From the sequence record PV435126.1: DNA of 64,000 nucleotides; one strand, written 5' to 3'. The notes under the pieces were generated by a model. It saw only the letters and a program-made list of their open reading frames with translations, made no database searches and was not told the DNA's origin. This document shows positions 21,840-60,375 of this stretch, piece by piece. The first letter of the stretch is position 1. The number at the start of each line of letters is the position of its first letter. The position numbers were made by a program, and so were the translations under genes. This DNA is from Escherichia phage EPFV3-03/2025.

Positions 21840-22075
21840 ACACTGGGCTCCTTAAATGAATCTATGTAATCAATTAAATCCCAAGCATCCCTATGACCTG
21901 TCAGAGGGTATACTTCTCCAAGAGGGATCATAGCAATAAGTCTATCAAAAACCCAGTCTGGACGCAACATTTTATGATGATATTCCCACTCACCTTCTAC
22001 AGACTTTTTCTGAGTGATCAGAATCTCTGTGTAGTGTTTTGCCTGTCTTGAGTAGATTGAAAATGACTTGTACAT
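21836..22075 (-). CDS. hypothetical protein (79 aa)
   Basis: Coupled ORF. Confidence 0.5.
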   Translation of the reverse strand: MYKSFSIYSRQAKHYTEILITQKKSVEGEWEYHHKMLRPDWVFDRLIAMIPLGEVYPLTGHRDAWDLIDYIDSFKEPSV

Positions 22076-22112
22076 AGATGACCCCCCCTCTTGTTGAAAA
22101 CAAAATACACTA

Positions 22113-22394
22113 CTACCAGGTTACTGTCAAGTAGGCAACCGTGTTATTTTTCTCCGGAGAGATGCCAACAACATCCACCTGCAGACCTCCTGCCCTCAAA
22201 TCCCCAACGATGTGTGGGAAGTAGTCTGAGAGGTGCGATGGGAGATTTATCGAAAATCCGCATCCCAGAAAGCCTGCTAACGCTTTATTTTGTATCTCCC
22301 CTACAATCGCATCATAAATGGAGTTAAGCTCGTCAGGGAGCGTTACAGGGCGTTTTAGCGCTAACTGGTGCAACTTGTCCTTAGCACTCATTTT
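22113..22394 (-). CDS. hypothetical protein
   Basis: ORF; start set at internal Met adjoining upstream stop. Confidence 0.4.
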   Translation of the reverse strand, partial: KMSAKDKLHQLALKRPVTLPDELNSIYDAIVGEIQNKALAGFLGCGFSINLPSHLSDYFPHIVGDLRAGGLQVDVVGISPEKNNTVAYLTVTW

Positions 22395-22927
22395 CATTTC
22401 AGGTCTACCTCTGGAGGTGCCAACCACATAAATGGCGGCAGGTCTAAACGGTTCTTCTTGTCCCACACAAAATATGCATATGCTTGCCCGTCAGTTCTGC
22501 CATTTGATTGGAATGATGGACGCTTAGATATTGTGATCACAGTGGTAGGTGCATTATCAAGCCACCATTCAAATCTGGCTTTGCTTTCCAGAAAATTAAG
22601 ACGCAAAAGCATAATAACTACGTCAGCATCTTTCAACGCCTTGTCTACAAACTCACGAGCCAGGCTGTACGGTGGGTTGGTGATAATACAGTCAACATGG
22701 TTGTATTCTGTATTCAGATAGTCAACACCTTCTTGGATTTCTCCCCATGCAGATCCTAACGGCATACGGGAGTAGAACACACCTGAGGCGCTATTTCTGC
22801 AAGGCTCTAGGTAGGTCCAGTCTTCTGGGAACGGAATAAGGTCATACAGCCCTTCTGCACACCACTCCGGTGTCACATACTCGTCGTAAGCGTTACGTTG
22901 TTCATCAGGTTTTCTAGCACAAGTCAT
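22394..22927 (-). CDS. putative DNA N6-adenine/N4-cytosine methyltransferase (small, NPPY type)
   Basis: Catalytic-type motif ITNPPYS. Confidence 0.5.
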   Translation of the reverse strand: MTCARKPDEQRNAYDEYVTPEWCAEGLYDLIPFPEDWTYLEPCRNSASGVFYSRMPLGSAWGEIQEGVDYLNTEYNHVDCIITNPPYSLAREFVDKALKDADVVIMLLRLNFLESKARFEWWLDNAPTTVITISKRPSFQSNGRTDGQAYAYFVWDKKNRLDLPPFMWLAPPEVDLK

Positions 22928-22978
22928 GCAAATCTCCAGATCATAAAAGCCCTCCGAAGAGGGCTTTAGAATTAATGT

Positions 22979-24028
22979 TTAAGCTTCTTCGACAATTCCT
23001 GCACCCAGGATTTTTTCATTGAGCTCTTTTGCTGTTTTAATAATATTGTCCACCAGACGCTTGCGGGTCTTATCTTTAACCTGAACTTCTTCACCTCCGT
23101 TCAGGGTGGTTTTCAATTGGGACAAAATGTCCTGAAGCTCTACCACAGAGAATCGCTGCAGATCTTCCGAGGTAATCTCACCAAGTGCAATCTTAACGGT
23201 CTCACCGCTCTCCATCTGTAGATTCAGGAACACAGTGTGAACATCACCTTTCACACCATTTGCTTTTGCAGACTCAACAGCATGAACCAGCTCGTCCAGA
23301 GATGTGCATTGGTGAATCTCTGGCAGGCCTGCTTCACCTAGCACACCTTCTTCATCACTTTTTGCCAAAAGCTTTTTCGGTTTCTGTCCATTCTGAATGC
23401 GCTGAATGTTTTCATCGTCCAGAATGATAGCACCAGTTCGAGATGCCAGCTCTTCTCCATCTAACCACACTTCGCCACCAGCTGTGATGGATGCGATTTC
23501 ATCTTCTGTTAACACCCCACCGTAGTATTTTTCAATCAGGCGTTCAAAACGTTTCTTCCAGTAGTTGATCTGGGTATTCATGTTCACACCGTTACCATAG
23601 GTGCCACCTTGATAGTAGTGGAACATAAATTCTGTGTCCGGAGCTACAGTTCGTTCTTTGCAACCCAGCCATAAGATTGTTCCTGCCGAGCAGCACATCC
23701 CTTCAGCGTGTACAACAACGCTTGCCTGAGACTCGCGGAATGCCTGCAAATACGCCATAGCAATGTGAACGCAACCACCGGGGCTGTTAATGATTACACG
23801 GATACTTTCTTCTGGCTGTGCCATACGAATTGTTTGCAAACGGGACATATGATCCTGCAAATCTTCAAGATCGTCAATATAAAGAACGTGGTCAACAACA
23901 GGTGTTGGGTAGCTGTATGTTTCCATAATACCACCCGGCATACCAAACATTTTGTTACTCATAGGTTCGAAACCGTTCTGTTTTTCTTTCATGCCGTGTA
24001 CCATGGTGCTGCGAGGTGTTAAATTCAT
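22979..24028 (-). CDS. ClpP-like serine peptidase (S14/S49 family) with C-terminal extension
   Basis: INSPGG, MCCSAG and FHYYQGG motifs parallel ClpP INSPGG / GQAASMG / HQPLGG; about 130 extra C-terminal residues. Confidence 0.65.
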   Translation of the reverse strand: MNLTPRSTMVHGMKEKQNGFEPMSNKMFGMPGGIMETYSYPTPVVDHVLYIDDLEDLQDHMSRLQTIRMAQPEESIRVIINSPGGCVHIAMAYLQAFRESQASVVVHAEGMCCSAGTILWLGCKERTVAPDTEFMFHYYQGGTYGNGVNMNTQINYWKKRFERLIEKYYGGVLTEDEIASITAGGEVWLDGEELASRTGAIILDDENIQRIQNGQKPKKLLAKSDEEGVLGEAGLPEIHQCTSLDELVHAVESAKANGVKGDVHTVFLNLQMESGETVKIALGEITSEDLQRFSVVELQDILSQLKTTLNGGEEVQVKDKTRKRLVDNIIKTAKELNEKILGAGIVEEA

Positions 24029-24088
24029 GAGAAATCCTTAATATTGGAAGTTGAAAGCTATTTATTTAAACCTGATTCACATTTACCT

Positions 24089-24448
24089 TTATTTAGCAAT
24101 CACTATAGAATACTTACGATTGTCAGAAGCATCACAGCTCAATGATTGCCAGTCTACCACATACCACGTATCATTGTCAACAATTACTTTATCGCCTGTT
24201 CTGTAGCAGGTGCTGCTTTCAATAATCCTAGACTCGATAAAGAATCTGTGTCGGCGCTCACGTAGCAACGCTAAGTTGATTATATTACCACCACTGTCCT
24301 TGGTCCACACATTCTTGGATCCTTTATTTGCCAAAATTGTCTCGCCGTTATATACAAACAGGCAGTATATTTTATTCAGTCTCTCTTGTATTGTAGCCAT
24401 ACTGTGTCCTTCTCCTTGTTTTGTCCAATAATAATATCTAAAGCTCAC
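24089..24448 (-). CDS. hypothetical protein
   Basis: ORF; start probably internal (MATIQERL). Confidence 0.45.
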   Translation of the reverse strand: MSFRYYYWTKQGEGHSMATIQERLNKIYCLFVYNGETILANKGSKNVWTKDSGGNIINLALLRERRHRFFIESRIIESSTCYRTGDKVIVDNDTWYVVDWQSLSCDASDNRKYSIVIAK

Positions 24449-24503
24449 CTGTTTGTCAACAACTGTTTTAGATATTTAAGGGTGGAATAACCACCCTTCT
24501 GTA

Positions 24504-25292
24504 TTACTCGGAAACAGGAGTCCAAATATGATTTGCACGATCCTCAATAAGATTGAGTGCAATCTGACGGCCTAACCCGGAACGAACGACATCGTCTGGA
24601 CTATCAAAGCTAATCATTCCAACCTCAGGATCTGGATGACGCGTAAAGAAATCTGTCACCCATGCAAGGCCAGATTTACCAGGGATGTCACGTTGGCTGT
24701 TATCGCCCATAATTACAAGGGTGGCCTGATCAGAGATCCTTGTGATAATTGACAACATTTCTTCAGGATTGGTTTGCTGTGCTTCATCAATAAGGACAAA
24801 GCATCGTTCATCAAAACTACGACCACGAATGCTTTCAACCTCACAAATCTCGATACGGCTGTTCTGACCGTCCCCAAGCATTGCTGCAAAAGCACCTTTG
24901 CCAACACGACGACAAATCGTGTCCATCATGCTTCTAAGATAGGGCCACAGTTTCTGCATTGCATTTCCAGGTTTAAATCCTGAAGTCTTTCCTGTCTGAA
25001 CGTAAGGGCGTGCAACAATGATCTTATCAATCTCGTTCTTGCGCAGAAGATCCCCCGCATATGCAGATGCCATGAATGTCTTACCGGATCCAAACACACC
25101 GTTTACAATGATAATCTTACGCGACCCTAGATAATCAAGATACTTTTGCTGCTTTTTATTCATTGGTCGGAGAGCTGGAGCGGTGTGCTCTCGTTCGTCA
25201 GCAAATTTTTCAGCAGCCTTACGCAGGCGATCAGATTTGCGAGCCTCTCTAGCTTCATCACGCATGCGTTTTGTTTCTTTAGCTCGACCCAT
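24504..25292 (-). CDS. phoH: PhoH-like ATPase
   Basis: Walker A GVFGSGKTF, IDEAQQ and GDNSQRD motifs. Confidence 0.85.
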   Translation of the reverse strand: MGRAKETKRMRDEAREARKSDRLRKAAEKFADEREHTAPALRPMNKKQQKYLDYLGSRKIIIVNGVFGSGKTFMASAYAGDLLRKNEIDKIIVARPYVQTGKTSGFKPGNAMQKLWPYLRSMMDTICRRVGKGAFAAMLGDGQNSRIEICEVESIRGRSFDERCFVLIDEAQQTNPEEMLSIITRISDQATLVIMGDNSQRDIPGKSGLAWVTDFFTRHPDPEVGMISFDSPDDVVRSGLGRQIALNLIEDRANHIWTPVSE

Positions 25293-25330
25293 GTTGGGAC
25301 TCCTTTCAGATTGAGATGTGCCAAGTACTT

Positions 25331-25681
25331 TTACTGCAATAGTTTTTCAATAGCCGCTTCCATGCTGCTTGCAACAGCCTGAACTCGGATATTCATCTCT
25401 TCTTGGTGGATCAGCTCCTTAAGCTCTTTAATGGTAAATTCTTTAGAGAAACCTTCCACCATAATCTTGTGTAAGGCTTCTTGCGTATCTACCTGCAAGA
25501 ACTTTTCCAGTTTGTTGGCAGAGGCTTCTAAATCAGCCCGAATACGAGGGTCATCTGTGCGATTCAGCATCAGGCGTAAGCCATCAAGATTAGTAGAAAT
25601 AGCGTCTGCATGTTGAGTAACTAACCGTGGCAAAATGAGATCTACAAACTTATTAGCCAAATCGATACGTTCTTGTGTCAC
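25331..25681 (-). CDS. hypothetical protein (116 aa)
   Basis: ORF. Confidence 0.5.
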   Translation of the reverse strand: MTQERIDLANKFVDLILPRLVTQHADAISTNLDGLRLMLNRTDDPRIRADLEASANKLEKFLQVDTQEALHKIMVEGFSKEFTIKELKELIHQEEMNIRVQAVASSMEAAIEKLLQ

Positions 25682-25853
25682 TGTTGCACCCCCTCTTCAT
25701 CCTCATGATGTTTCTTTTCACGCTTGTGTTTTTTCTTAAGCTCAAGCGCAATCTCTTTTTTGTACGCCTTCTTCAAGGCCTTTTTAGCCATTTGGCACCT
25801 CCTCTGCTTTCATTACGCTAATTATAACCAACTTAACAAGACTTTGTCAACAA

Positions 25854-26327
25854 TTAGTCAACCTGAACCCAACCGCCTGCTACCTTTTTAAACATTCTTT
25901 GGTTATCGCTGCCTCGGAATGGTTTCTTGGTTGGTAAATCTTTTACATACTTTCCATCAATGACGATATCAGCCAGTTTAAGAACATCACTAGAGATATG
26001 CTCAAATGTGAACCCAGTATACACAAGAATAGTTTTCTTGTCACCAAACTTTTCCTTAATTCTCCTCATAAGGTCAATAATACCTGGCTCATTATAAGTA
26101 GCCAAAGGCTCTCCACCAAGTAAAGAAATACCGCATACAGATTCATTGTCTAAATCCAACAAAATTTTCTGCAAATCTTCTTCGGTGAACTCTCTTCCTT
26201 TATCTTTTGACCAAAATGCTTGATTAAAGCAACCAGGACAAGCGTGTGGGCACCCAGATACCCACAAAGCTGTCCTAATACCTGGTCCCTCGGTGTAAGA
26301 TATCTCTGTATACCCGACAATATTCAT
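25854..26327 (-). CDS. nrdG: anaerobic ribonucleotide reductase activating protein (radical SAM)
   Basis: GPGIRTALWVSGCPHACPGCFN and SLLGGEPL follow the NrdG pattern; start at MNIVGY. Confidence 0.85.
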   Translation of the reverse strand: MNIVGYTEISYTEGPGIRTALWVSGCPHACPGCFNQAFWSKDKGREFTEEDLQKILLDLDNESVCGISLLGGEPLATYNEPGIIDLMRRIKEKFGDKKTILVYTGFTFEHISSDVLKLADIVIDGKYVKDLPTKKPFRGSDNQRMFKKVAGGWVQVD

Positions 26328-26503: not shown

Positions 26504-27496
26504 TCAGCAACCACAACTTCCGTAGTGCTTAACCCGTTCTATAACCTCCGCTTGCTTACCTTTATTGTAAGGACGAGAGTTTGGACTGGACAGATACCCG
26601 GATACGCGTCTGATCACACTGATCGTTCCTTCTTCATGGTTTCCACATTCTGGGCATACAAAGCCTTTAGCTGTTGCACTGAACTCACCAGAGAATCCAC
26701 ACTTAAGACATTTATCCACAGGCTGGTTAATACCAAAATACATAATGTGTTTATATCCGAAATCAACAAGAGCTTCCAAAGCATCTAAGTTGTTTTTCAG
26801 ATTTGGTGTCTCTATGTACCCAATGTTGCCACCAGAGGAGATCATAGCAAAACCTTCCTCATACTTCCACTTATCAAAAGGCGAGCTATTGATCCATACT
26901 GGCTGATGGAAACTGTTGGTGAGGTATTCATGCTCGTGCTTCAACACTTCTGGGTATTCACGATCCAGACAGGTTGCAGCTTTATAGCATAAACTCTCAG
27001 AAGGTGTGCCGTACAAGCTAAATGCTAGTCCACTTTCCTTCTTGTATCGCTCACAAGCATCTTTCATGTGCTGAAGGATTCCAAGAGCTAAAGCCTTGTC
27101 ACCCTCTCTGCCCAAAATCTGACAGGTTTCATACACACCAATATACCCAATACTGATGGAAGCGTACCCGTCATAGAAGAGTTTATCGATACTCTCTTCA
27201 GGATCCAGGCGAGCAAGAGCTCCTTCACACCACATGATAGGGTTCTGCCCTGCCTTTGTTCCTTTTAGACGGTTAACCCTTACAAGGTGAGCCTCATATG
27301 CCAAATCCAAATATTCGTCAAGAACTGCAAAGAAATCAACACCTTCCGTTTTAGCTTTTGCCGCAATCATTGGTAGGTTAAGGCTAACAACACCCAAGTT
27401 GAATCTGCCAAGGTATTTCTCCTCGCCTGTTACAGGGTCGCTATATTTCGATAAGAAACTTCTACACATTATGTTCAAGGTGGTTCGCAAGGCCAC
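26504..27496 (-). CDS. nrdD: anaerobic ribonucleoside-triphosphate reductase, C-terminal part
   Basis: Glycyl radical motif RVSGYL near C-terminus, Zn-ribbon CLKCG...CPECG; first codon in track is GTG, so start or splice junction is uncertain. Confidence 0.85.
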   Translation of the reverse strand: MALRTTLNIMCRSFLSKYSDPVTGEEKYLGRFNLGVVSLNLPMIAAKAKTEGVDFFAVLDEYLDLAYEAHLVRVNRLKGTKAGQNPIMWCEGALARLDPEESIDKLFYDGYASISIGYIGVYETCQILGREGDKALALGILQHMKDACERYKKESGLAFSLYGTPSESLCYKAATCLDREYPEVLKHEHEYLTNSFHQPVWINSSPFDKWKYEEGFAMISSGGNIGYIETPNLKNNLDALEALVDFGYKHIMYFGINQPVDKCLKCGFSGEFSATAKGFVCPECGNHEEGTISVIRRVSGYLSSPNSRPYNKGKQAEVIERVKHYGSCGC

Positions 27497-27616
27497 CCCC
27501 GCACCTTTACGTGCTGCTGCATGTCCCCATGCAGATCAGACTATATCTTCACACTTAGTGTGTCTACCATTTCGAGTGTCATCAGCTTACACCCTACACC
27601 GCTACATTCATCACGG

Positions 27617-28168
27617 TTAGTCGTTAGGCATTTCGTAACAGAACTCGTAATCATAGTTATTAGGTGCACCACGTTTCAGGATAGCAGATATTCTTTTTCT
27701 ATCTATTCCTAAAACATCAGCACAACATCTCAGACTCTTAAAGTGAATAACCACACCAGTTAATTTGTGGGTGGCTTTCACCCCGTGACATCTTGTGTAA
27801 AAAGCATAACAGTTGTTGTCGTATCCTTCTTGAGTATTGTCTGGGCAAGCTCCCCACTCAAGGTTGTATACGCTGTTATCTTTCCTGTTGTCACCTTTGT
27901 GCTTAACATATGGTAAATTGTCTGGATTTGGTAAAAACGCTTCAGCAACAAGTCTGTGAACCCTTAGGCAAACAGTCTTTTTGTTCTTGCGTATCCTGAC
28001 AAGACGGTAACCTGTGTTTATCTCTTCCCACGAATGAATAATTCTTTCATTTTCGTATCGGGTGCAATAAACATTGCCCATCTCGTCAATTTCATAACCT
28101 TCAAAATCACGAATTTGTTTTCTCATTTCAGGACTCCTCTTAGTCAGGAGTTCTGTTACGTTTAGCAC
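27617..28168 (-). mobile_element. HNH homing endonuclease gene inserted within nrdD
   Basis: HNH/AP2-like signature GYRLVRI...VHRLVAEAF...HKGDNRKDNSVYNLEWG; lies between the two nrdD halves. Confidence 0.8.
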
Positions 28169-28219
28169 GGGATTGTCCGTTCTGGAGTTTCCCCGTTTAG
28201 ATAGATTTTACATGAGCAG

Positions 28220-29389
28220 TTATAGTTTACCCATGCTTGTTACTTTGCCGTCTGTTGAACCTGTCACTTTACGATTCAGCGGAACAGAAACAAAGTCAGG
28301 ATAAATCCGCTCTGCAGAACATTCTAGAGCCAATCGTTTCAAATCGTAGTTAGGATCCCCAGGGTTCATGTTGACACCCTCCTCTAAGAAGAACAGCACT
28401 TTAGGGAACACAGGTGTGATCCGTTCTTCACCAAGACCCATTTTGTGAACTTTCAAGTAGTTTTTGGTAATCATTCTACCAAAGACCGAGGTATCTAGCC
28501 CTAAACTTAATGTGATGAATGGAGTTTGCCCGTTGACAGAAGTTAACGTATTGATTTGGTAGAGCAAAGTTTGCATACTATCAAACACGTCTTTATCTGT
28601 CATTTGCATTGCAACAGTCTCAGCATCTGGCAACCAATGTTCCTGACAAAATTTAAGGTTCTTCTCGTAGGTTGCTTCAGCATACTGTGCCAGATAATGA
28701 TCAATATGGCTCATGGTCTGACCACCATATTGAGCACTAGCTACTGCACTAGAGATTTGGCTAAGGATTGTTGTTGCAACCCCTATTGACTTCGGCTTAC
28801 TGACATGGGCGTTGCCAATGTTGAATCCGTTTTCCAGCATATCCGGATAATTTACCAAACAACAGTTTGTTAACGGACTGATCAGGTAGTCAAGATCATG
28901 CACATGGATGAAGCCTTTGTTGTGCTCTTCGGAGACACGGTCTGGCAGGATCTGTGTTGATGCAAGATGTTTGCTAAGGATTCCTGCAAGCAGGTCACGA
29001 TGAGTGTGTACATGATTAGTAGGCTTATTTGCGTTTTCTTTTGTAAATTCATCACAAGTACGATCCAAGAAGCCGCTAATATCTGCAAGCAGTTTTCCAC
29101 CTGCCTCTCTGTTATTATCCCTTGTCTGTCTATACTGGATGTATTCTCTGGCTGCACATTTTAAACCCATATCCATAAGAGCATCTTCAACAAGGATATG
29201 GATATTTTTTACAGAGATCGTGCACTGGTCAGTTGGCAGATTGTTGGCAACAACTTCATTAACCGCACAGGCAATCCGGTAAGCTTCTTCTTCAGTATGT
29301 CCAGACTCAAGTAAGGCGGACTCTGCCGCCTTGATCACCTTAATTCCGTTATAAAACTCTTCTCTACCGTCCCGTTTTACAACTTTCAC
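28220..29389 (-). CDS. nrdD: anaerobic ribonucleoside-triphosphate reductase, N-terminal part (ATP-cone)
   Basis: ATP-cone-like N-terminus MKVVKRDGREEFYNGIKV; halves total 719 aa, near full-length NrdD. Confidence 0.85.
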   Translation of the reverse strand: MKVVKRDGREEFYNGIKVIKAAESALLESGHTEEEAYRIACAVNEVVANNLPTDQCTISVKNIHILVEDALMDMGLKCAAREYIQYRQTRDNNREAGGKLLADISGFLDRTCDEFTKENANKPTNHVHTHRDLLAGILSKHLASTQILPDRVSEEHNKGFIHVHDLDYLISPLTNCCLVNYPDMLENGFNIGNAHVSKPKSIGVATTILSQISSAVASAQYGGQTMSHIDHYLAQYAEATYEKNLKFCQEHWLPDAETVAMQMTDKDVFDSMQTLLYQINTLTSVNGQTPFITLSLGLDTSVFGRMITKNYLKVHKMGLGEERITPVFPKVLFFLEEGVNMNPGDPNYDLKRLALECSAERIYPDFVSVPLNRKVTGSTDGKVTSMGKL

Positions 29390-53952: not shown

Positions 53953-54236
53953 GAGCCACCGTATTATTAGTTGCTTGCTTGCTGCTGTGCGGGTGTGCGA
54001 CAAGTGTCGAAAAAGAATACAAGATTGACCCTCCGGATGTAGGAAGGTTGATTGTTAAACCTCCCGAGGGTGCTATGAAACCACCTGCTAAAGCTATCCC
54101 TTTGAAGAAAGGTGCGCCAGATGCGGTGAATTCTGGCATTATGAGGGATAATAACCTGTCTTGTAGTAATGATAGAGCTAAATTGATCATTTTGCAAGAC
54201 TATATAAGAACACTGTTTCCAAAGGAGAGAGGTTAA
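53949..54236 (+). CDS. o-spanin (Rz1-like outer-membrane lipoprotein)
   Basis: Signal peptide with lipobox-like LLLCGCA; Pro-rich mature part; ATG overlaps i-spanin stop. Confidence 0.65.
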   Translation: MRATVLLVACLLLCGCATSVEKEYKIDPPDVGRLIVKPPEGAMKPPAKAIPLKKGAPDAVNSGIMRDNNLSCSNDRAKLIILQDYIRTLFPKERG

Positions 54237-55783
54237 TGTCTAAGATTTACGGACCGTGTTCTGAAAAGCAGAAGATGATCCTTGAGAACGATGCAGATAT
54301 TTTGGTGATCGGAGGTGCAGCAGGTTCTGGCAAGTCGTTCCTCTTGCAGCTAATGCCACTTAAAATTATTGATGACCCACACAGCTCTGTGGTTATGTTC
54401 CGAAGAACAACTCCACAGTTGGAAGGTGAGGGTGGGCTATGGCCTAAAGCAGTAGCTATTTACAGTGATCTGCCTGAAAACATTAAACCAAAGTTCAGAG
54501 AGAAGGATCATAAGTTTATTTTTCCACGGTTTGATCCGAGCACTGGCAAGTGGGACAGGAGCAAAAAAGGGGCCGTTGTAAAATACTGCCACATGGAGTA
54601 TGTCCAAGATAAGCTTAACCATCAAGGCCTTGAGTACACCATGGTTTGCTTCGATGAAGGCACGCAATTCGAATGGGAGCAGATAGACTATTTGATGTCT
54701 CGTCTGCGATCTCAGTCAAAGTATCCATCAAGAATGGTTATCAGTTGTAACCCCGACTCAGAACACATGCTTGCCAAACTGGTTAGGTGGTGGTTGGACG
54801 ATGAAGGGTATCCAGATCCGGAGAAATGTGGTAAGAAAAGATATTTTATCCGACGCGACGGTGAGTTTATCTGGGGAGACTCTAAAGAGGAGTTAATAGA
54901 GAAATACACCACGGTTAACGGACTGGGTGTGGAGATCAAGCCAAGACCGTTGTCATTCTCGTTTATAGGTGCAACAATTTTCGATAATCCTGTCTGCTTG
55001 AGAGACAACCCAGAATACCTTGCTTTCCTTGAAGGTCTACCAGAGCTTGAAAAAGCCCAGCTTCTTCATGGCAACTGGTTTGCCAAACCTGAGGGTGCAA
55101 ACTATTTCCAAAGATCTTTCCTTCGTGATGCCGATAGAGTACCTCTTGGATCAGTATCTTGCAGGGCATGGGATAAGGCAGGAACCGAGAGAACTTCCGG
55201 TAATAAATTTCCTGACTTTACTGCCAGTGTTAAGGTAAGTAAAGATAGCGACGGTTTTTATTACCTGTCCGGGGATTATTGTCCTGAGAACGTGGATGAC
55301 GGTAGGTATTCCACAGGTCTGGAAGGTAAGTTCTGTAAAAAGGCTGGGGAACGAGATGTGATCATCAGGAAACAGGCGCAGTTTGATGGAGATGATTGCA
55401 TAATCGTATTTTCTGTGGACCCCGGTCAGGCAGGTAAGAGTGAGTTCTTAACCTCGTCCAGATCCTTGCTCGCCGAAGGGTTCAGGGTTGAAGAAGATCC
55501 GATGCCTTCCAACAAATCTAAACTGACAAGGTTCTCACCTTTTGCCAATCTTGCCCAACAAGGAATGGTGAGGATTGTAAAATCCAGTTTCCATCCTGAC
55601 ACTCTGGAAGCATTTCTGACTGAACTTGAAAAGTTCAACGGGGAAAGATCAACATTTAACAGAAAAGACGACTGGGCCGACTGTGTAGCTTCTGCGATTA
55701 ATTTCTTGGAGAAAGAGGAGGTAGCACTGCCTTGTGTGATTCCATCAATCTCATCACCTTCTATGTTCAAGCGTTTTATCTAA
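54236..55783 (+). CDS. terL: terminase large subunit
   Basis: 515 aa; Walker A ILVIGGAAGSGKSF, Walker B-like MVCFDEGTQ; directly upstream of portal-sized gene. Confidence 0.85.
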   Translation: MSKIYGPCSEKQKMILENDADILVIGGAAGSGKSFLLQLMPLKIIDDPHSSVVMFRRTTPQLEGEGGLWPKAVAIYSDLPENIKPKFREKDHKFIFPRFDPSTGKWDRSKKGAVVKYCHMEYVQDKLNHQGLEYTMVCFDEGTQFEWEQIDYLMSRLRSQSKYPSRMVISCNPDSEHMLAKLVRWWLDDEGYPDPEKCGKKRYFIRRDGEFIWGDSKEELIEKYTTVNGLGVEIKPRPLSFSFIGATIFDNPVCLRDNPEYLAFLEGLPELEKAQLLHGNWFAKPEGANYFQRSFLRDADRVPLGSVSCRAWDKAGTERTSGNKFPDFTASVKVSKDSDGFYYLSGDYCPENVDDGRYSTGLEGKFCKKAGERDVIIRKQAQFDGDDCIIVFSVDPGQAGKSEFLTSSRSLLAEGFRVEEDPMPSNKSKLTRFSPFANLAQQGMVRIVKSSFHPDTLEAFLTELEKFNGERSTFNRKDDWADCVASAINFLEKEEVALPCVIPSISSPSMFKRFI

Positions 55784-55885: not shown

Positions 55886-57442
55886 GTGTCCAAAAAGAAC
55901 CGCAGGAAACACAACGCCACAGCCAAAACTGTGAATAAATCTGGGAACGCAGGCGCACCAACTCATAATGTTCGTATGAGTGAGATCGGTTCTGGCGCAC
56001 TTTCCCAAATTATGGCAGAATCACAATCTATGATGGTTGAGGAATTGCGTTGGCCTCAGCTGATTGCCACAGTGGAGACTATGAAATGTGATTCCACAGT
56101 TGCTACTGCCTTAGATACAAAATATGTTTTCATCACGAAAGCATTTAATGATTTTAAGATCCTTTATAATGTTAAAAGTGAAGACTCTAAGAAAGCTGCC
56201 GAGCTTATAGAGTATTCTTTGCGTAATTTGGCAAACCAGCAAACTCTTCGAGATATTGCAAGAAGCGCAGCTACCTTTAACGAGTATGGTTTTTCACTGT
56301 TTGAGAAAGTATACCGCAGAGAGAAAGAAGGTAAATATGCCGGGATGCTTCTTATTGATAAAATTGCATTCCGACCTCAGGCCAGTTTGTCCAGATCAGA
56401 GCCGTTTGTCTTTGACAAGAATAGTAGAACACTGACAGGTATTTATCAATCACCTAATGCATTTCTAAACACGCAGAATGCACGCTGGGCTGGCCCTCTT
56501 GCTGCAATGCCTTCAAAAGGCTTTAATGAGCCTGAAATTTTCATCCCTGCCAAGAAGCTTATGCTCATGACCTTGTCAGGAACAGAGTCTAATCCTGCAG
56601 GTGTGTCACCGATGATAGGTTGCTACAGATCTTTCCGTGAGAAAGTTCTGATTGAAAACCTTGAGGTTGTTGGCTGCTCCAAAGACCTTGGTGGTGTGCT
56701 TGAGCTGAAAATTCCTTCCAATATTCTGAACAAGGCCAGCATTGACCCGAATTCAATGGAAGGGAGAATGGTTGCAGATCTTATGCTTGACGCAGCAAAT
56801 GCCCACAGTGGGGAGCAAAGTTTCTTTATACTTCCGTCTGATAGAGATAAGTCTGGTAAAGAGCTTTACTCCATGACCCTGAAGGGGGTTGACGGCATGG
56901 GTAAGCAGTATTCCACTAAAGATTTGATTGATGCCCGTAAGAAGGCGATTCTTGACCGTTTCGGTGCTGGCTTTATTAACCTCGGTAACGATAACGTTGG
57001 ATCCTTCTCTCTGTCTGAGTCAAAACAATCTATCCATGGTCATTTTGTTCAGCGTGATATAGATATTATCACTGAGGCCTTCAATAAAGATCTTATTCCA
57101 CAGCTTCTGGCATTGAATGGTATCATCCTTGAAGATGATGATATGCCTAAACTGAAACCTGGTCTGATTGAAGAAGTGGACATGGAGAGCTTCTCCAAGT
57201 TTGTCCAGAGGATCGGTGCTGTAGGTTACTTGCCAAAAACTCCTGCAGTAATTAATAAGATTCTTGAAGTAGGCGGGTTTGATGAAAGATTTGACGAAGA
57301 CATGGATCAGGAAGAGCTGATGAAGCTCTTGGGCCAGGATATCAGCAGGGCTGGTGATGGTATGGCTGCAGGATCCACTGGCAACGGCACTTCTAAGATG
57401 TCATCAACCAGAGATAATTCCATATCTAACATGGAAAATTAA
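55886..57442 (+). CDS. portal protein (putative)
   Basis: 518-aa ORF after terL; GTG start with GAGGGG RBS; call from size and synteny. Confidence 0.6.
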   Translation: MSKKNRRKHNATAKTVNKSGNAGAPTHNVRMSEIGSGALSQIMAESQSMMVEELRWPQLIATVETMKCDSTVATALDTKYVFITKAFNDFKILYNVKSEDSKKAAELIEYSLRNLANQQTLRDIARSAATFNEYGFSLFEKVYRREKEGKYAGMLLIDKIAFRPQASLSRSEPFVFDKNSRTLTGIYQSPNAFLNTQNARWAGPLAAMPSKGFNEPEIFIPAKKLMLMTLSGTESNPAGVSPMIGCYRSFREKVLIENLEVVGCSKDLGGVLELKIPSNILNKASIDPNSMEGRMVADLMLDAANAHSGEQSFFILPSDRDKSGKELYSMTLKGVDGMGKQYSTKDLIDARKKAILDRFGAGFINLGNDNVGSFSLSESKQSIHGHFVQRDIDIITEAFNKDLIPQLLALNGIILEDDDMPKLKPGLIEEVDMESFSKFVQRIGAVGYLPKTPAVINKILEVGGFDERFDEDMDQEELMKLLGQDISRAGDGMAAGSTGNGTSKMSSTRDNSISNMEN

Positions 57443-57509
57443 AAATTATCAACACAGGGGGTTGCAAAACCTCCTTTGGCGTGATAAAATAATCCACATG
57501 GGGAATAAG

Positions 57510-57929
57510 ATGCCACAGGAAGAAATGATTTCCTACGAAATCATCTACGAACCTGACACTAAAGATGCTCACGGTGAGTGGATGAGTAAAGACACCATCA
57601 AAAAGGCTAAAGATAACTGGGACGCAGCATACGCCGCAGGCCTAGTTTCTGAAAACCTTTTTCACTTGACCTCTACAGATGCTTTCACCATTGAAAAGAC
57701 GTGGATTCAAGAAGAGTTTGATGTTGTAGTGATTGGCACTGAGCAGGTCATCAAGGCTGGCTCTTGGGTTGCTAAAGTTAAATACAATAATCCTGAATTA
57801 TGGGAAGCTAAGAAGGCTGGCATTGTTGGTGGCCTAAGCATTCAGGCAACAGGTAATGTTGATGAAGAGACTGGTGAAATTACCAACGTAAACTTCGGAA
57901 TCAGTGTTGTAGAAGAGGGCAATGAATAA
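57510..57929 (+). CDS. head morphogenesis protein (possible XkdF-like prohead protease)
   Basis: ATG 57510 with GGGGAATAAG RBS; between portal and scaffold; DAHGEW motif; assignment tentative. Confidence 0.35.
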   Translation: MPQEEMISYEIIYEPDTKDAHGEWMSKDTIKKAKDNWDAAYAAGLVSENLFHLTSTDAFTIEKTWIQEEFDVVVIGTEQVIKAGSWVAKVKYNNPELWEAKKAGIVGGLSIQATGNVDEETGEITNVNFGISVVEEGNE

Positions 57930-58906
57930 TGTCTGAAAAAACGATTACTATTAAAGAGAAGGGGATTGCCCTGTGCCATAAGGCGCAAGGCTATAGCGCT
58001 AACAACAGACCTGTATCTCTTTTGATGAAGAGTGATCTTCAGCCTGAGCAGTTAACAGAAGATATTGTTAAGGCACTTCGCCAAGTTACTGTGGAGCTTA
58101 GTTTTGAAGAATACCTGCGTCGTTTCTTCGATATGTGGTATGACGATGCCAAGGCACTTGCACACATGCTTGGTTTTGAGGTTGAAGAGGAAGCTTGGGC
58201 TAAAGAGCATCCTGATTGGGAATGGGCGCAAGCTGACGCAGAGTCTTGTATTGCATGGCTGGAAGAGCGTTGTGATAACGTGACCATTCATAAAGCTGCA
58301 AAAGAAGGCAAGCAGCTTAGTGTGGTAGATCAGTACAGCCTGTTAAAAACACAACAGATTTTTGAACAAGTAACCGCTGATCTCTTCGATAAAGAAGGGA
58401 ACCTGATCAAGGCGGTACAGGAACCTACTGAGGTAGATAAAACTACCGAGGTGGATGATGTTGCAAAATCCGCAAATACCGAGGAGAATCCGGTGGACGT
58501 AACCAAAACTAAAGAGTATCTGGATCTGCTGAAGCAAGTAGAAGAGCTGAAAGCAACCCAGAGTAAAGCTGAAGAAATCATCAAGGCCCAGGTTGAAGTT
58601 GAAAAAGCTAAAATGCTGACTAAAGCTCAAGCTTTAAGCTTTGTTGGTGAAGAAGATCATGCAACCCTGGTTGACTTCATGCTGGAAAAAGCTAACGAAC
58701 CTATTGTAGCTATGCTGGAGAAAGCTCAAGCCAAAATTGAAGAGCTGGAAGCAGAGGTGCATAAAACCAAAGAAGAGTTTGCCACCACTGAACATGGTAA
58801 TGATGGCGAACCTGTTGTGGATGATATTGCAAAATCCGCAGAAGAAATTCTTGCTGAAAACGTTGCAAAAGCACTTGCTCGTGCACGTGCAGAATCTACC
58901 AAATAA
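57929..58906 (+). CDS. scaffolding protein (putative)
   Basis: 325 aa, acidic and helical; between portal and capsid genes. Confidence 0.5.
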   Translation: MSEKTITIKEKGIALCHKAQGYSANNRPVSLLMKSDLQPEQLTEDIVKALRQVTVELSFEEYLRRFFDMWYDDAKALAHMLGFEVEEEAWAKEHPDWEWAQADAESCIAWLEERCDNVTIHKAAKEGKQLSVVDQYSLLKTQQIFEQVTADLFDKEGNLIKAVQEPTEVDKTTEVDDVAKSANTEENPVDVTKTKEYLDLLKQVEELKATQSKAEEIIKAQVEVEKAKMLTKAQALSFVGEEDHATLVDFMLEKANEPIVAMLEKAQAKIEELEAEVHKTKEEFATTEHGNDGEPVVDDIAKSAEEILAENVAKALARARAESTK

Positions 58907-58926: not shown

Positions 58927-59316
58927 ATGATTACCGCTCAATATTCTGATATCGTGCTCGGCAAAGTTGATTCTAGCGATGCTGGCTACAATTTTAAAGA
59001 GATGGAAATTACACTGACAGAGCATCACCACGCTGGCACGGTTGTGACCAAAGATGGTAGCATTGCCAATCAGGACGGTTCAGACGCTTACGGCGTTCTG
59101 GTGGATCGTGCTTTAATTCCAGACTCTGCTGGTAAAGTGCATATCGCTGAACCTCTTGGCACAAAGAAATATAAACTGGTTGTTGCCGTGCGTGGTGTTA
59201 CTTTTGCCAAGGATAAATTGCTGGCAACTGGTGGCGCTAAAGCAGCACAGGCTGTGTTAGACAAGCTTGAGGCTCTGGGTAACAAGGTTCAAGTCCAGAC
59301 CCTTGGTGATGAGTAA
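58927..59316 (+). CDS. head protein (decoration/accessory, putative)
   Basis: 129-aa ORF directly upstream of major capsid gene. Confidence 0.4.
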   Translation: MITAQYSDIVLGKVDSSDAGYNFKEMEITLTEHHHAGTVVTKDGSIANQDGSDAYGVLVDRALIPDSAGKVHIAEPLGTKKYKLVVAVRGVTFAKDKLLATGGAKAAQAVLDKLEALGNKVQVQTLGDE

Positions 59317-59364: not shown

Positions 59365-60375
59365 ATGATTACTCGTAAAGATGAATTTGGCATTGTTGAT
59401 TTAGGTGCTACTCTGGACCTTGTTCCGCGTCAATTTCGCCTGATCACTGGTATGGATCTGTTCGAAACCCGTCTCGGCACCTCAACAATTGCTCAGATCG
59501 AGCGTGTTGATGAAGTTGTAACCGACATTCCGGCACGCCGTCGTGGTGGTGAGCGTAACTACGTTGGTAGTGAACGTGCTCAGGTTAAAAACCTGAACAT
59601 CCCGTTCTTCCCTCTGGACAAAGGCATCACTGCCGCAGATGTTCAGAACTTCCGTCGTTACTTCACCCCTGATGCTCCGAAAACTGTTCAGGACGTAGTA
59701 ACCCGCGTTGTTCGCCGTATCCGTGTTTCTCATGAAGCACTGCGTGAGAAAGCGCTGTTCCAGGCTATTCTGGGTAAATCCTATGCACCGGGTGACACAA
59801 CCTGTCAGTATGACTATTACACTCTGTGGGGTGTGACTCAGAAGTCTGTTGAGATTGACCCTGCAAAAGCAGATCAGGATCCTATGGAGGTTCTGGAAGA
59901 AGCTCGTCTGCACATCGCACTGCAAGCTGGTGATAACGCAGCTGGCTATCGTATTGTAGCTCTGTGCTCACCAGAGTTCTTCAGCGCTATTACCCATCAC
60001 CCGCTGGTAGAACTGGCATACACCTACTACGGCTCTGCTCAGGAACCTCTGCGTCGCCGTCTGGGTGCTGGCGGTCAAGACAGCGTATACCGTGTGTTTG
60101 AACATAAAGGTATCACCTTTATCGAAGATATCTCTGGCAATATTCCTAAGAAAGAAGCTCGCATTCTGCCGATGGGTATTGATCAGATGTTCCAGCTGCA
60201 CTTTGCTCCGGCAGATGATGTTAACGAAGCAAACACCCCAGCACAGGAACTGTACATGTGGTATAAACACTCTGCATACCTGCGTGAAGAGAAGATTGAA
60301 TCTGAAACTTCCATGCTGGCAGTTAACACCCGTCCAGAGCTGGTTGTTAAAGTAACTCTGAAAAACGGTGGCTAA
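59365..60375 (+). CDS. major capsid protein (putative)
   Basis: 336 aa; synteny; strong bias to high-expression codons (CTG, CGT, GGT, GAA); strong terminator follows. Confidence 0.6.
   Translation: MITRKDEFGIVDLGATLDLVPRQFRLITGMDLFETRLGTSTIAQIERVDEVVTDIPARRRGGERNYVGSERAQVKNLNIPFFPLDKGITAADVQNFRRYFTPDAPKTVQDVVTRVVRRIRVSHEALREKALFQAILGKSYAPGDTTCQYDYYTLWGVTQKSVEIDPAKADQDPMEVLEEARLHIALQAGDNAAGYRIVALCSPEFFSAITHHPLVELAYTYYGSAQEPLRRRLGAGGQDSVYRVFEHKGITFIEDISGNIPKKEARILPMGIDQMFQLHFAPADDVNEANTPAQELYMWYKHSAYLREEKIESETSMLAVNTRPELVVKVTLKNGG

What the first reader, a model, noticed from the sequence alone, without database searches (positions are those of the whole stretch)
22979..24028. ClpP-like peptidase with C-terminal extension located in the DNA-metabolism block
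The N-terminal 210 aa carry ClpP/S14-type Ser and His motifs; a further 130-aa acidic helical tail follows. The gene sits between a methyltransferase and phoH, about 30 kb from the head module, where a separate protease-like candidate lies next to the portal. It may be a displaced prohead protease-scaffold fusion or a peptidase aimed at host or phage regulatory proteins.
Basis: partly seen in the sequence, partly recalled or inferred. Interest (0 to 1): 0.5.

Follow-up and report, generated by a model that had tools for sequence, protein, structure and literature searches.

The report
Phage ClpP-like peptidase paired with PhoH
This is the already-annotated ClpP-like serine peptidase of rV5-type E. 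coli phages; it is not the capsid-maturation protease and probably not a ClpX/ClpA-dependent one, its function is untested, and it belongs to a widely conserved but undescribed gene pair with the phage PhoH ATPase.

Summary
The ORF is real: 22979-24028, minus strand, 349 aa, with a good ribosome-binding site. The window is a Vequintavirus (98% identical to phages SYGMH1 and FV3). The protein is rV5 gp122, annotated "ClpP ATP-dependent protease subunit" in more than 100 genomes.

Residues 45-215 adopt a ClpP fold. Ser114 and His137 are invariant in 149 of 149 relatives. The third triad residue is Glu186, not Asp.

It does not look like a working ClpP subunit. The hydrophobic AAA+ docking pocket of E. 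coli ClpP is replaced by invariant Arg77, Glu99, His107 and Glu109. No N-terminal axial loop is predicted. It falls far below the curated ClpP and Clp-related head-protease cut-offs.

It is not a displaced prohead protease. The head module 31 kb away has its own S78_2 protease and scaffold. This gene has a sigma-70-type promoter and its own terminator, in a two-gene operon with a conserved 103-aa protein.

The tail is a disordered linker plus a small, family-specific alpha/beta domain that weakly resembles an HeH/Rho-N motif.

New here: PhoH lies just upstream on the same strand in about half of all lineages of this clade, and PhoH and the peptidase are the only genes shared across those neighbourhoods.

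Function remains untested. The most likely role is a cytoplasmic, non-structural peptidase.

The parts
22979..24028 (-). ClpP-like peptidase CDS, 349 aa including the stop codon 22979-22981. It is the ortholog of rV5 gp122.
   Evidence: ORF list; Pfam CLP_protease 5.7e-13; PHROG 5410 9e-155 over the full length; 97-99% identical proteins annotated as ClpP-like in GenBank.
23897..24028 (-). N-terminal 44 residues, predicted disordered. They carry a family-conserved N25/G29/Y40-P41 motif. No counterpart of ClpP helix A or the axial loop is predicted.
   Evidence: pLDDT below 50 for residues 1-40; invariant columns; alignment to E. coli ClpP.
23384..23896 (-). ClpP-fold peptidase core, residues 45-215. 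Ser114 is encoded at 23687-23689, His137 at 23618-23620 and Glu186 at 23471-23473.
   Evidence: Model pLDDT about 90; Foldseek match to ClpP; Ser and His invariant in 149 of 149 relatives, third residue Asp 105, Glu 31, Gln 8, Thr 3 and 2 gaps; codons checked.
23243..23383 (-). Linker, residues 216-262. It is variable in length and sequence and has low model confidence.
   Evidence: pLDDT 38-65; gap-rich, unconserved alignment columns.
22982..23242 (-). C-terminal alpha/beta domain, residues 263-349: a beta-hairpin followed by a helix, an extended loop and a long helix. Phe293, Glu297 and Arg322 are invariant. It weakly resembles an HeH/Rho-N motif.
24431..24459 (-). Sigma-70-type promoter, TTGACA-17-TATTAT (11 of 12 matches), upstream of the small ORF. 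It corresponds to rV5 promoter P121.
   Evidence: Promoter scan; sequence; rV5 Table S4 lists P121 at the same place.
24089..24400 (-). Conserved 103-aa protein of unknown function (rV5 gp121, PHROG 5456), the first gene of the two-gene operon.
   Evidence: PHROG 5456 6e-39. jackhmmer finds it on the same strand 55-494 nt upstream of the ClpP-like gene in 24 loci, including a lineage whose peptidase is only about 36% identical.
22943..22964 (-). Intrinsic terminator GCCCTC-TTCG-GAGGGC-TTTTAT, 15 nt after the stop codon. It is identical to rV5 terminator t122.
   Evidence: Read directly from the sequence; rV5 Table S4. The automatic scan did not list it.
24504..25292 (-). PhoH-like P-loop ATPase, 262 aa, the conserved upstream neighbour. 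It is followed by a hairpin at about 24475-24497.
   Evidence: Pfam PhoH 3.6e-47; PHROG 170; linkage statistics.
57354..57929 (+). For contrast, not part of the unit: the head-module protease (Peptidase_S78_2, XkdF type), lying between the portal gene (55886-57442) and a scaffold-like gene (57929-58906).
   Evidence: Pfam PF14550 1.2e-17, 64.6 bits against a cut-off of 24; PHROG 3017 'head maturation protease'.

Best explanation
The gene encodes a non-structural serine peptidase of the ClpP clan. It belongs to a large phage-specific clade (PHROG 5410 and 1827) that is distinct both from cellular ClpP and from head-module prohead proteases.

Shown here:
- The core has the ClpP fold with an intact Ser114-His137 pair and Glu186 in the Asp position.
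- The surface that cellular ClpP uses to dock ClpX or ClpA is not conserved.
- The gene is the second cistron of a short operon: sigma-70-type promoter, then a 103-aa protein, then the peptidase, then a terminator. This operon lies inside the nucleotide-metabolism and replication block.
- A PhoH-like ATPase gene lies immediately upstream, and this arrangement is conserved across many phage lineages.

Inferred:
- The protein is made before the late genes.
- It assembles into a ClpP-like ring and cleaves host or phage cytoplasmic proteins or peptides without host ClpX or ClpA.
- The C-terminal alpha/beta domain, on its flexible linker, recruits a substrate, a partner or a nucleic acid.
- The 103-aa protein and/or PhoH act in the same pathway.
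For: Fold and active site.

Not a canonical ClpP. The docking-pocket residues of E. coli ClpP are Y60, Y62, F82, I90, M92 and L114 (list from bioRxiv 10.1101/820209). They map, through a gap-free stretch from N64 to S97, to R77, I79, E99, H107, E109 and A129. R77, E99, H107 and E109 are invariant in the family, and these positions are mostly polar across 149 relatives. My E. coli ClpP reference sequence was verified against PDB 3mt6. TIGR00493 scores 33.5 bits against a cut-off of 308.6.

Not the head protease. The head module is complete, with an S78_2 protease and a scaffold. NF045542 scores 63 bits against 120. The promoter is sigma-70-type and the terminator is as predicted for rV5, where late promoters lie elsewhere. 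gp122 was absent from the rV5 virion mass spectrometry.

The same two-protease layout occurs in other phages, such as Barba and P26059A.

PhoH linkage. PhoH lies upstream on the same strand within 3.5 kb in 68 of 177 loci with enough flank. Of 90 loci that hold a PhoH, 77 have it upstream on the same strand and 3 downstream. This holds for 18-19 of 31 clusters at 50% identity, once phiPsa267 (missed's gap limit) is counted as. PhoH and the peptidase are the only families shared by all 19 cluster representatives within +/-6 kb; the next most shared family is in 5 of 19.

The small ORF is conserved with the peptidase.
Against: There are no biochemical, genetic or expression data for any member of the clade in the literature I could search.

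Glu at the third triad position, and Gln in most close relatives, could lower activity.

Ring assembly was not tested.

The protein scores better against phage ClpP-type head-maturation families (PHROG 1684 at 2.8e-23, NF045542 at 3e-17) than against cellular ClpP (about 1e-8 to 1e-10). An ancestry in prohead proteases is therefore likely, and a residual capsid role cannot be excluded.

Early timing rests only on promoter prediction.

About half of the clusters lack a nearby PhoH, and in this phage PhoH has its own hairpin and lies outside the operon, so any coupling with PhoH is not obligatory.
Confidence: 0.55

Rival explanations
1. It is a second, displaced prohead protease fused to a scaffold or capsid-targeting domain, and it takes part in head maturation.
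For: Its closest annotated relatives outside its own clade are ClpP-type head maturation proteases: PHROG 1684, 94, 2976 and 133 at 1e-15 to 3e-23, NF045542 at 3e-17 and Gordonia phage gp4. Prohead proteases often carry C-terminal targeting or scaffold segments. A prohead protease would also be missing from mature virions, so the negative mass spectrometry does not exclude this.
Against: The head module already encodes an S78_2 protease and a scaffold in the canonical order. The gene is 31 kb away, on the opposite strand, behind a sigma-70-type promoter with its own terminator and no late-promoter motif. It falls below the curated NF045542 cut-off. The C-terminal domain is a small alpha/beta fold, not a coiled-coil scaffold, and matches no viral scaffold. 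The conserved neighbour is PhoH, not portal or capsid genes.
Confidence: 0.1
2. It is a genuine ClpP proteolytic subunit, as annotated ('ATP-dependent protease subunit'). It would form rings, alone or mixed with host ClpP, that are fed by host ClpX or ClpA.
For: It has the ClpP fold, and Ser, His and an acidic third residue are in place. The host supplies ClpX and ClpA, and no AAA+ unfoldase was seen in the annotated 44 kb around the gene in a relative.
Against: The core hydrophobic docking residues are replaced by invariant charged residues. No helix A or axial loop is predicted. The Arg170 position is Gly185. The curated ClpP equivalog scores are about 10% of their cut-offs. Identity to cellular ClpPs is only about 20%.
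Confidence: 0.1
3. PhoH and the ClpP-like peptidase work as a two-component machine, possibly with the 103-aa protein. The PhoH ATPase, an RNA-helicase-like P-loop protein, would select or remodel RNA-bound or nucleic-acid-bound proteins, and the peptidase would degrade them.
For: The PhoH-then-peptidase order is fixed and conserved down to below 40% identity. In 15 of 70 pairs the genes are at most 50 nt apart or overlap. These are the only two genes shared across 19 otherwise unrelated neighbourhoods. The C-terminal domain weakly resembles nucleic-acid-associated HeH/Rho-N motifs. The role of PhoH in phages is called enigmatic (PMC7824862).
Against: About half of the clusters lack an adjacent PhoH, and many phages have PhoH without this peptidase. 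No fusion protein was found in 221 loci. In this phage PhoH is followed by a hairpin, and the peptidase operon has its own promoter. PhoH is an SF1-like ATPase, not an AAA+ unfoldase. After collapsing to clusters, the long tail is not significantly associated with PhoH (p = 0.28).
Confidence: 0.2
4. It is a catalytically weak or inactive ClpP-fold protein used as a scaffold, decoy or inhibitor, for example by poisoning host ClpP rings.
For: The third triad residue is Glu here and Gln in most close relatives. The Arg sensor position is Gly.
Against: Ser and His, together with the oxyanion-region motifs (INSPGG, FMFH), are invariant in 149 of 149 relatives over large distances, which is typical of purifying selection on catalysis.
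Confidence: 0.05

Closest known systems
Cellular ClpP (E. coli ClpP, PDB 1tyf/3mt6; MEROPS S14; TIGR00493)
   Same: It has the same alpha/beta fold (TM about 0.68 over about 160 residues). The INSPGG loop is shared. The nucleophile Ser and general-base His are at homologous positions. A long 'handle' helix is predicted at residues 150-169.
   Different: Identity is only about 20%. Asp171 is replaced by Glu. The docking-pocket residues Y60, F82, I90 and M92 are replaced by Arg77, Glu99, His107 and Glu109. There is no helix A or axial loop. Arg170 is replaced by Gly. A 134-aa C-terminal linker and domain are added. The score is 33.5 bits against 308.6 for the equivalog model. The gene is phage-encoded and lies next to PhoH rather than ClpX.
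ClpP-related phage head maturation proteases (NCBIfam NF045542; PHROG 1684, 94 and 133; for example Gordonia phage gene 4)
   Same: They are phage-borne ClpP-fold Ser/His peptidases that lack the ClpX-docking features. They are the best-scoring annotated families outside the protein's own clade, and many carry C-terminal extensions.
   Different: Those genes sit between the portal and capsid genes and are late genes. This one is 31 kb away in the early/middle block with a sigma-70-type promoter. The head module has a different (S78_2) protease. The score is below the curated cut-off (63 against 120 bits). The C-terminal domain is unrelated to scaffolds.
Stand-alone phage 'ATP-dependent protease' clade (PHROG 1827 and 5410), for example ICP1 gp211, Pakpunavirus PAK_P4 gp168, Otagovirus phiPsa267 gp047, Rheinheimera phage Barba gp074
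   Same: This is the same clade (E 2e-39 to 9e-155). The genes have the same non-head location among nucleotide-metabolism and ligase genes, often directly downstream of PhoH. Some members, such as ICP1 gp211 (326 aa), also have long tails ending in an HeH-like motif.
   Different: Many members are short (180-230 aa) and lack the C-terminal domain. The third triad residue is Asp in most of them. None has been characterised experimentally as far as I could find.
HeH/SAP/Rho-N helix-extended loop-helix motifs (Pfam PF07498, PF02037, PF12949)

Membership tests
Canonical ClpP (MEROPS S14 / TIGR00493) | ClpP alpha/beta fold and a Pfam PF00574 match above the gathering score | tested here: met
   Pfam 49.6 bits against 20.2. 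The top 50 Foldseek PDB hits are all ClpP, E 2e-10, TM normalised by target 0.64-0.71.
Canonical ClpP (MEROPS S14 / TIGR00493) | Equivalog-level sequence score (NCBIfam or TIGRFAM curated cut-off) | tested here: not met
   TIGR00493 scores 33.5 bits against 308.6, and the PRK models score 21-41 bits against 228-361.
Canonical ClpP (MEROPS S14 / TIGR00493) | Catalytic Ser and His at the homologous positions | tested here: met
   Ser114 and His137 align to Ser97 and His122. Both are invariant in 15 of 15 close homologues and 149 of 149 relatives.
Canonical ClpP (MEROPS S14 / TIGR00493) | Catalytic Asp (Asp171) | tested here: not met
   The position holds Glu186 here and Gln in most close homologues. 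In 149 relatives it is Asp 105, Glu 31, Gln 8, Thr 3. Glu may substitute functionally, but the geometry was not checked.
Canonical ClpP (MEROPS S14 / TIGR00493) | Hydrophobic pocket that docks the IGF/IGL loops of ClpX or ClpA | tested here: not met
   Y60, Y62, F82, I90, M92 and L114 map to R77, I79, E99, H107, E109 and A129. Four of these are invariant charged or polar residues. The pocket residue list comes from 10.1101/820209.
Canonical ClpP (MEROPS S14 / TIGR00493) | N-terminal axial loop and helix A that gate the pore and contact the unfoldase | tested here: inconclusive
   Residues 1-44 do not align to ClpP and are modelled with pLDDT below 50. A different N-terminal structure cannot be excluded.
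Canonical ClpP (MEROPS S14 / TIGR00493) | Heptameric rings stacked into a tetradecamer, with ATP-dependent degradation through an AAA+ partner | not testable with these tools
   No multimer prediction or biochemistry was available. A handle-like helix at 150-169 is predicted, but the Arg170 sensor position is Gly185.
ClpP-related phage head maturation protease (NF045542; PHROG 1684/94/133) | Score above the curated family cut-off | tested here: not met
   NF045542 scores 63 bits against 120. The PHROG matches cover only the peptidase core.
ClpP-related phage head maturation protease (NF045542; PHROG 1684/94/133) | Gene located in the head module next to the portal, scaffold and capsid genes | tested here: not met
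   The gene is at 23-24 kb on the - strand. The head module is at 54-60 kb on the + strand with its own S78_2 protease. In relatives the conserved neighbour is PhoH.
ClpP-related phage head maturation protease (NF045542; PHROG 1684/94/133) | Late expression and presence in procapsids | tested here: inconclusive
   The sigma-70-type promoter and own terminator argue against late expression, and no late-promoter motif is listed for this gene in rV5, but these are predictions only. gp122 was not detected in rV5 virions, where only 19 proteins were found. Procapsids have not been examined.
Stand-alone phage ClpP-like clade (PHROG 5410) | Full-length match including the C-terminal domain | tested here: met
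   PHROG 5410 at E 9.2e-155, residues 24-345 against profile positions 4-322 of 323. There are 39 homologues, all from rV5-, phi92-, 4MG-, PVP-SE1- and Hena1-type phages.
HeH/SAP/Rho-N motif (C-terminal domain only) | Significant sequence or structural match to a helix-extended loop-helix domain | tested here: inconclusive

The most novel reading that the evidence does not exclude
The PhoH-like ATPase and this ClpP-like peptidase, in this lineage together with the 103-aa gp121-like protein, would form a conserved phage functional module. It would be an ATPase-plus-peptidase system, unrelated to the AAA+/ClpP partnership, that acts on nucleic-acid-associated host or phage proteins during early or middle infection. 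If true, it would give the first concrete functional handle on phage PhoH, one of the most widespread phage 'auxiliary' genes of unknown role.
Probability: 0.2. Interest if true: 0.65.

Novelty: already known. Interest (0 to 1): 0.35.

Why it matters
The gene itself is ordinary. It is present and annotated in every rV5-like phage and catalogued as PHROG 5410. Two points deserve attention.

First, the usual label, 'ATP-dependent Clp protease proteolytic subunit', is probably misleading. The features that make ClpP ATP-dependent through ClpX or ClpA are missing, and the protein is not the capsid protease either.

Second, the fixed PhoH-then-ClpP-like gene pair is conserved across many otherwise unrelated phage neighbourhoods. 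I could not find it described in the literature. It offers a testable entry point into the long-standing question of what phage PhoH does. These phages (the BASEL collection, rV5, ICP1) are genetically tractable.

Tried and rejected
- Literature searches for a characterised phage ClpP-like protein found only annotation-level mentions. These covered rV5 with ClpP, 'phage-encoded ClpP', Vequintavirus with Clp protease, ClpP-like with anti-defense, ICP1 with ClpP, and PVP-SE1, phi92 or 4MG with ClpP.
- The E. coli host-factor screen for the V5-like phage LL12 does not mention clpX, clpP, clpA or lon.
- PADLOC gave no meaningful defence-system hit for the peptidase, PhoH or the small ORF.
- A broad 51-sequence alignment was too divergent for the search for related loci, so I used four narrower alignments instead.
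- The apparent link between a long tail and PhoH adjacency (43% against 3% of loci) disappeared after collapsing to clusters (Fisher p = 0.28), so I dropped it.
- No PhoH-ClpP fusion ORF was found in 221 loci.
- The automatic terminator scan missed the terminator after the gene. It was found by reading the sequence and from rV5 Table S4.
Full report
**Identity of the window and the ORF**

Megablast of 22000-26000 finds 122 phage records. The best are Escherichia phages SYGMH1 (98.0%) and FV3 (97.6%), followed by many rV5-like Vequintavirus genomes. The ORF 22979..24028 on the minus strand is 349 aa. It has an AAGGA ribosome-binding site 6 nt before the ATG. In those records it is annotated 'ClpP ATP-dependent protease subunit' or 'ClpP-like protease'. 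It is rV5 gp122: 349 aa, 38.5 kDa, pI 5.0.

**Fold and active site**

Pfam CLP_protease matches residues 59-168 at 5.7e-13, above the gathering score. PHROG 5410 ('ATP-dependent protease') matches the full length at 9e-155.

An AlphaFold2 model built on 15 homologues has pLDDT of about 90 for residues 45-215, below 50 for residues 1-40 and 222-237, and 60-90 for the C-terminal part. Foldseek against the PDB returns only ClpP structures (E 2e-10, about 160 aligned columns, TM about 0.68 normalised by the target).

Ser114 (GMCCSAG) and His137 (FMFH) align to ClpP Ser97 and His122. They are invariant in the 15 close homologues and in all 149 representatives aligned from a search of 1.84 billion proteins. 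The Asp171 position holds Glu186 here and Gln in most close homologues. Across the 149 representatives it is Asp 105, Glu 31, Gln 8, Thr 3. I could not inspect the model geometry.

**Is it a ClpP in the functional sense?**

I verified my E. coli ClpP reference sequence against PDB 3mt6, which is identical over 207 aa. I took the list of IGL/IGF pocket residues from the ClpAP cryo-EM paper (10.1101/820209).

The stretch from N64 to S97 in ClpP and from N81 to S114 in the phage protein is 33 residues in both, with no gaps, so the mapping is firm:

| E. coli ClpP pocket residue | Phage protein residue |
|---|---|
| Y60 | R77 |
| Y62 | I79 |
| F82 | E99 |
| I90 | H107 |
| M92 | E109 |
| L114 | A129 |

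R77, E99, H107 and E109 are invariant in the family. Across the whole phage clade these positions are mostly polar or charged. There is no counterpart of helix A or the axial loop. The Arg170 position is Gly185. Curated NCBIfam ClpP models score about a tenth of their cut-offs. The label 'ATP-dependent (ClpX/ClpA-dependent) subunit' is therefore not supported. Oligomeric state could not be tested.

**Is it the prohead protease?**

The head module lies on the + strand and contains:

| Gene | Coordinates |
|---|---|
| Large terminase | 54236-55783 |
| Portal | 55886-57442 |
| Peptidase_S78_2 / XkdF-type protease | 57354-57929 (Pfam 1.2e-17) |
| Scaffold-like protein, 325 aa | 57929-58906 |
| Decoration protein | 58927-59316 |
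| Major capsid protein | 59365-60375 |

The head module is thus self-sufficient and follows the canonical gene order.

The ClpP-like gene is 31 kb away, on the other strand, inside a block of nrd, thymidylate synthase, ligase and exonuclease genes. A TTGACA-17-TATTAT promoter at 24459-24431 precedes a 103-aa ORF (24400-24089), which is followed by the peptidase gene. A GCCCTC-TTCG-GAGGGC-TTTTAT terminator follows at 22964-22943.

Kropinski et al. predicted the same promoter (P121) and terminator (t122) in rV5. Their putative late promoters, which have a different motif, lie only in the structural region. This points to expression by host RNA polymerase before the late genes; that is an inference from the sequence.

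rV5 gp122 is not among the 19 proteins found by virion mass spectrometry. This is weak evidence, because few proteins were detected and proteases usually leave the capsid. NF045542 ('head maturation protease, ClpP-related') scores 63 bits against a cut-off of 120.

The protein is nevertheless closer to phage ClpP-type head proteases (PHROG 1684 at 2.8e-23) than to cellular ClpP. Descent from such a protease is plausible.

**The C-terminal extension**

The tail, residues 216-349, has pI 5.0 with 24 acidic and 17 basic residues. That is not more acidic than the core at pI 4.7.

It consists of a variable, low-confidence linker (residues 216-262) and a folded unit. The folded unit has two beta-strands (267-271 and 277-281), a short helix, helix 295-309, an extended loop and helix 322-342. 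Phe293, Glu297 and Arg322 are invariant.

- Pfam gives only sub-threshold Rho_N (3 of 41), SAP (2 of 41) and HeH hits in tails of relatives.
- BFVD contains only an ortholog.
- A PDB profile search finds nothing.
- The domain is older than the Vequintavirinae: a profile of it detects 16 of 66 long tails among distant representatives (alignment).

I regard 'HeH-like tether' as a lead, not a finding.

**Conserved neighbourhood**

Annotated records showed PhoH directly upstream of the ClpP-like gene in three further phages:

- Rheinheimera phage Barba, in the order PhoH, CLP protease, Dam methylase.
- Pseudomonas phage phiPsa267, where the two ORFs overlap.
- ICP1, where PhoH gp208 is followed by two small ORFs and then gp211.

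It was not adjacent in PAK_P4 or in a T5-like Klebsiella phage.

I then fetched 214 IMG/VR loci with four alignments. I called ORFs and searched them with PhoH and ClpP-like HMMs. The results:

- 90 of 221 loci hold a PhoH. It is upstream on the same strand in 77 and downstream in 3.
- 68 of 177 loci with at least 3 kb of upstream DNA have PhoH within 3.5 kb upstream.
- In 15 of 70 pairs the genes are at most 50 nt apart or overlap.
- After clustering the peptidases, 38 of 72 informative clusters at 70% identity hold PhoH-linked members (35 in all members, 3 mixed), 18 of 31 at 50%, and 8 of 15 at 40%. phiPsa267 was wrongly scored negative because my ORF caller over-extended its ORF.
- For one representative of each of 19 linked clusters, all-against-all BLASTP of every ORF within +/-6 kb finds only PhoH and the ClpP-like protein in all 19. 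The next most shared family is in 5.

The pair is therefore conserved as a unit while its surroundings turn over. I found no paper that notes this. Iyer et al. 2021 suggest that patchily distributed phage ClpP targets host proteins, and they call phage PhoH enigmatic.

There are caveats. About half of the lineages lack the pairing. No fusion protein was seen. In this phage PhoH ends with its own hairpin and lies outside the peptidase operon.

The 103-aa ORF (PHROG 5456) is conserved immediately upstream of the peptidase in 24 loci. These include a lineage with only about 36% identical peptidase and one locus without PhoH.

**Verdict**

The most likely reading (confidence 0.55) is a non-structural, Ser/His(/Glu) ClpP-clan peptidase that is independent of ClpX and ClpA, is expressed with the nucleotide-metabolism genes, and acts on cytoplasmic proteins. 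Its C-terminal domain would serve as a targeting module, and it is functionally associated with PhoH and a small conserved protein.

The rival readings are a second prohead protease (0.1), a true ClpXP/ClpAP subunit (0.1), a PhoH-peptidase machine (0.2, which overlaps with the main reading) and a pseudo-enzyme (0.05).

The gene is already known and annotated. The interest lies in the probably wrong functional label and in the undescribed PhoH pairing.

Noticed in passing
window 24504-25292 (PhoH) with 22979-24028; loci L002, L005, L006, L007-L030, L184-L219: PhoH followed by the ClpP-like gene is a conserved two-gene unit with fixed order across many phage lineages. These are the only two gene families shared by all 19 cluster representatives within +/-6 kb. 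I found no description of this in the searched literature.
   Followed up: yes
window 24089-24400 (-): A 103-aa basic protein of unknown function (PHROG 5456, rV5 gp121) is co-transcribed with the peptidase. It is conserved just upstream of the peptidase in 24 loci, down to about 36% peptidase identity. It is a candidate adaptor or regulator.
   Followed up: partly
window 26504-29389 (-): The anaerobic ribonucleotide reductase gene nrdD is split. The N-terminal half (28220-29389) carries the ATP-cone and NRDD profile positions 1-263. The C-terminal half (26504-27496) carries NRDD positions 263-562 and the glycyl-radical domain. Between them lie an HNH_3-like ORF (27617-28168) and a sub-threshold group I intron match (27517-27751, 32.9 bits, E 2e-6). 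In phage DrSchubert the gene is intact. This is probably an intron with a homing endonuclease.
   Followed up: partly
window 57354-57442 (+): The longest ORF of the head-module S78_2 protease overlaps the end of the portal ORF by 89 nt. PHROG and Pfam matches begin at about residue 33-53, so the true start is probably further downstream.
   Followed up: no
search results for window 22000-26000: Nineteen GenBank records named 'Campylobacter phage' (for example C15, A12a, A142) are 94-96% identical to this E. coli rV5-like sequence. The host labels of those records look doubtful.
   Followed up: no
locus L001 14151-14468 (DrSchubert bas50_0153): A 'ribosome hibernation factor' gene is annotated in the same early/middle block of a close relative. 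It may bear on the idea that this block manipulates host RNA-protein machinery.
   Followed up: no
window about 12 kb and about 48 kb: GC skew changes sign at about 12 kb and about 48 kb. This coincides with the switch from + strand to - strand genes and back. The ClpP-like gene lies inside the long - strand block.
   Followed up: no
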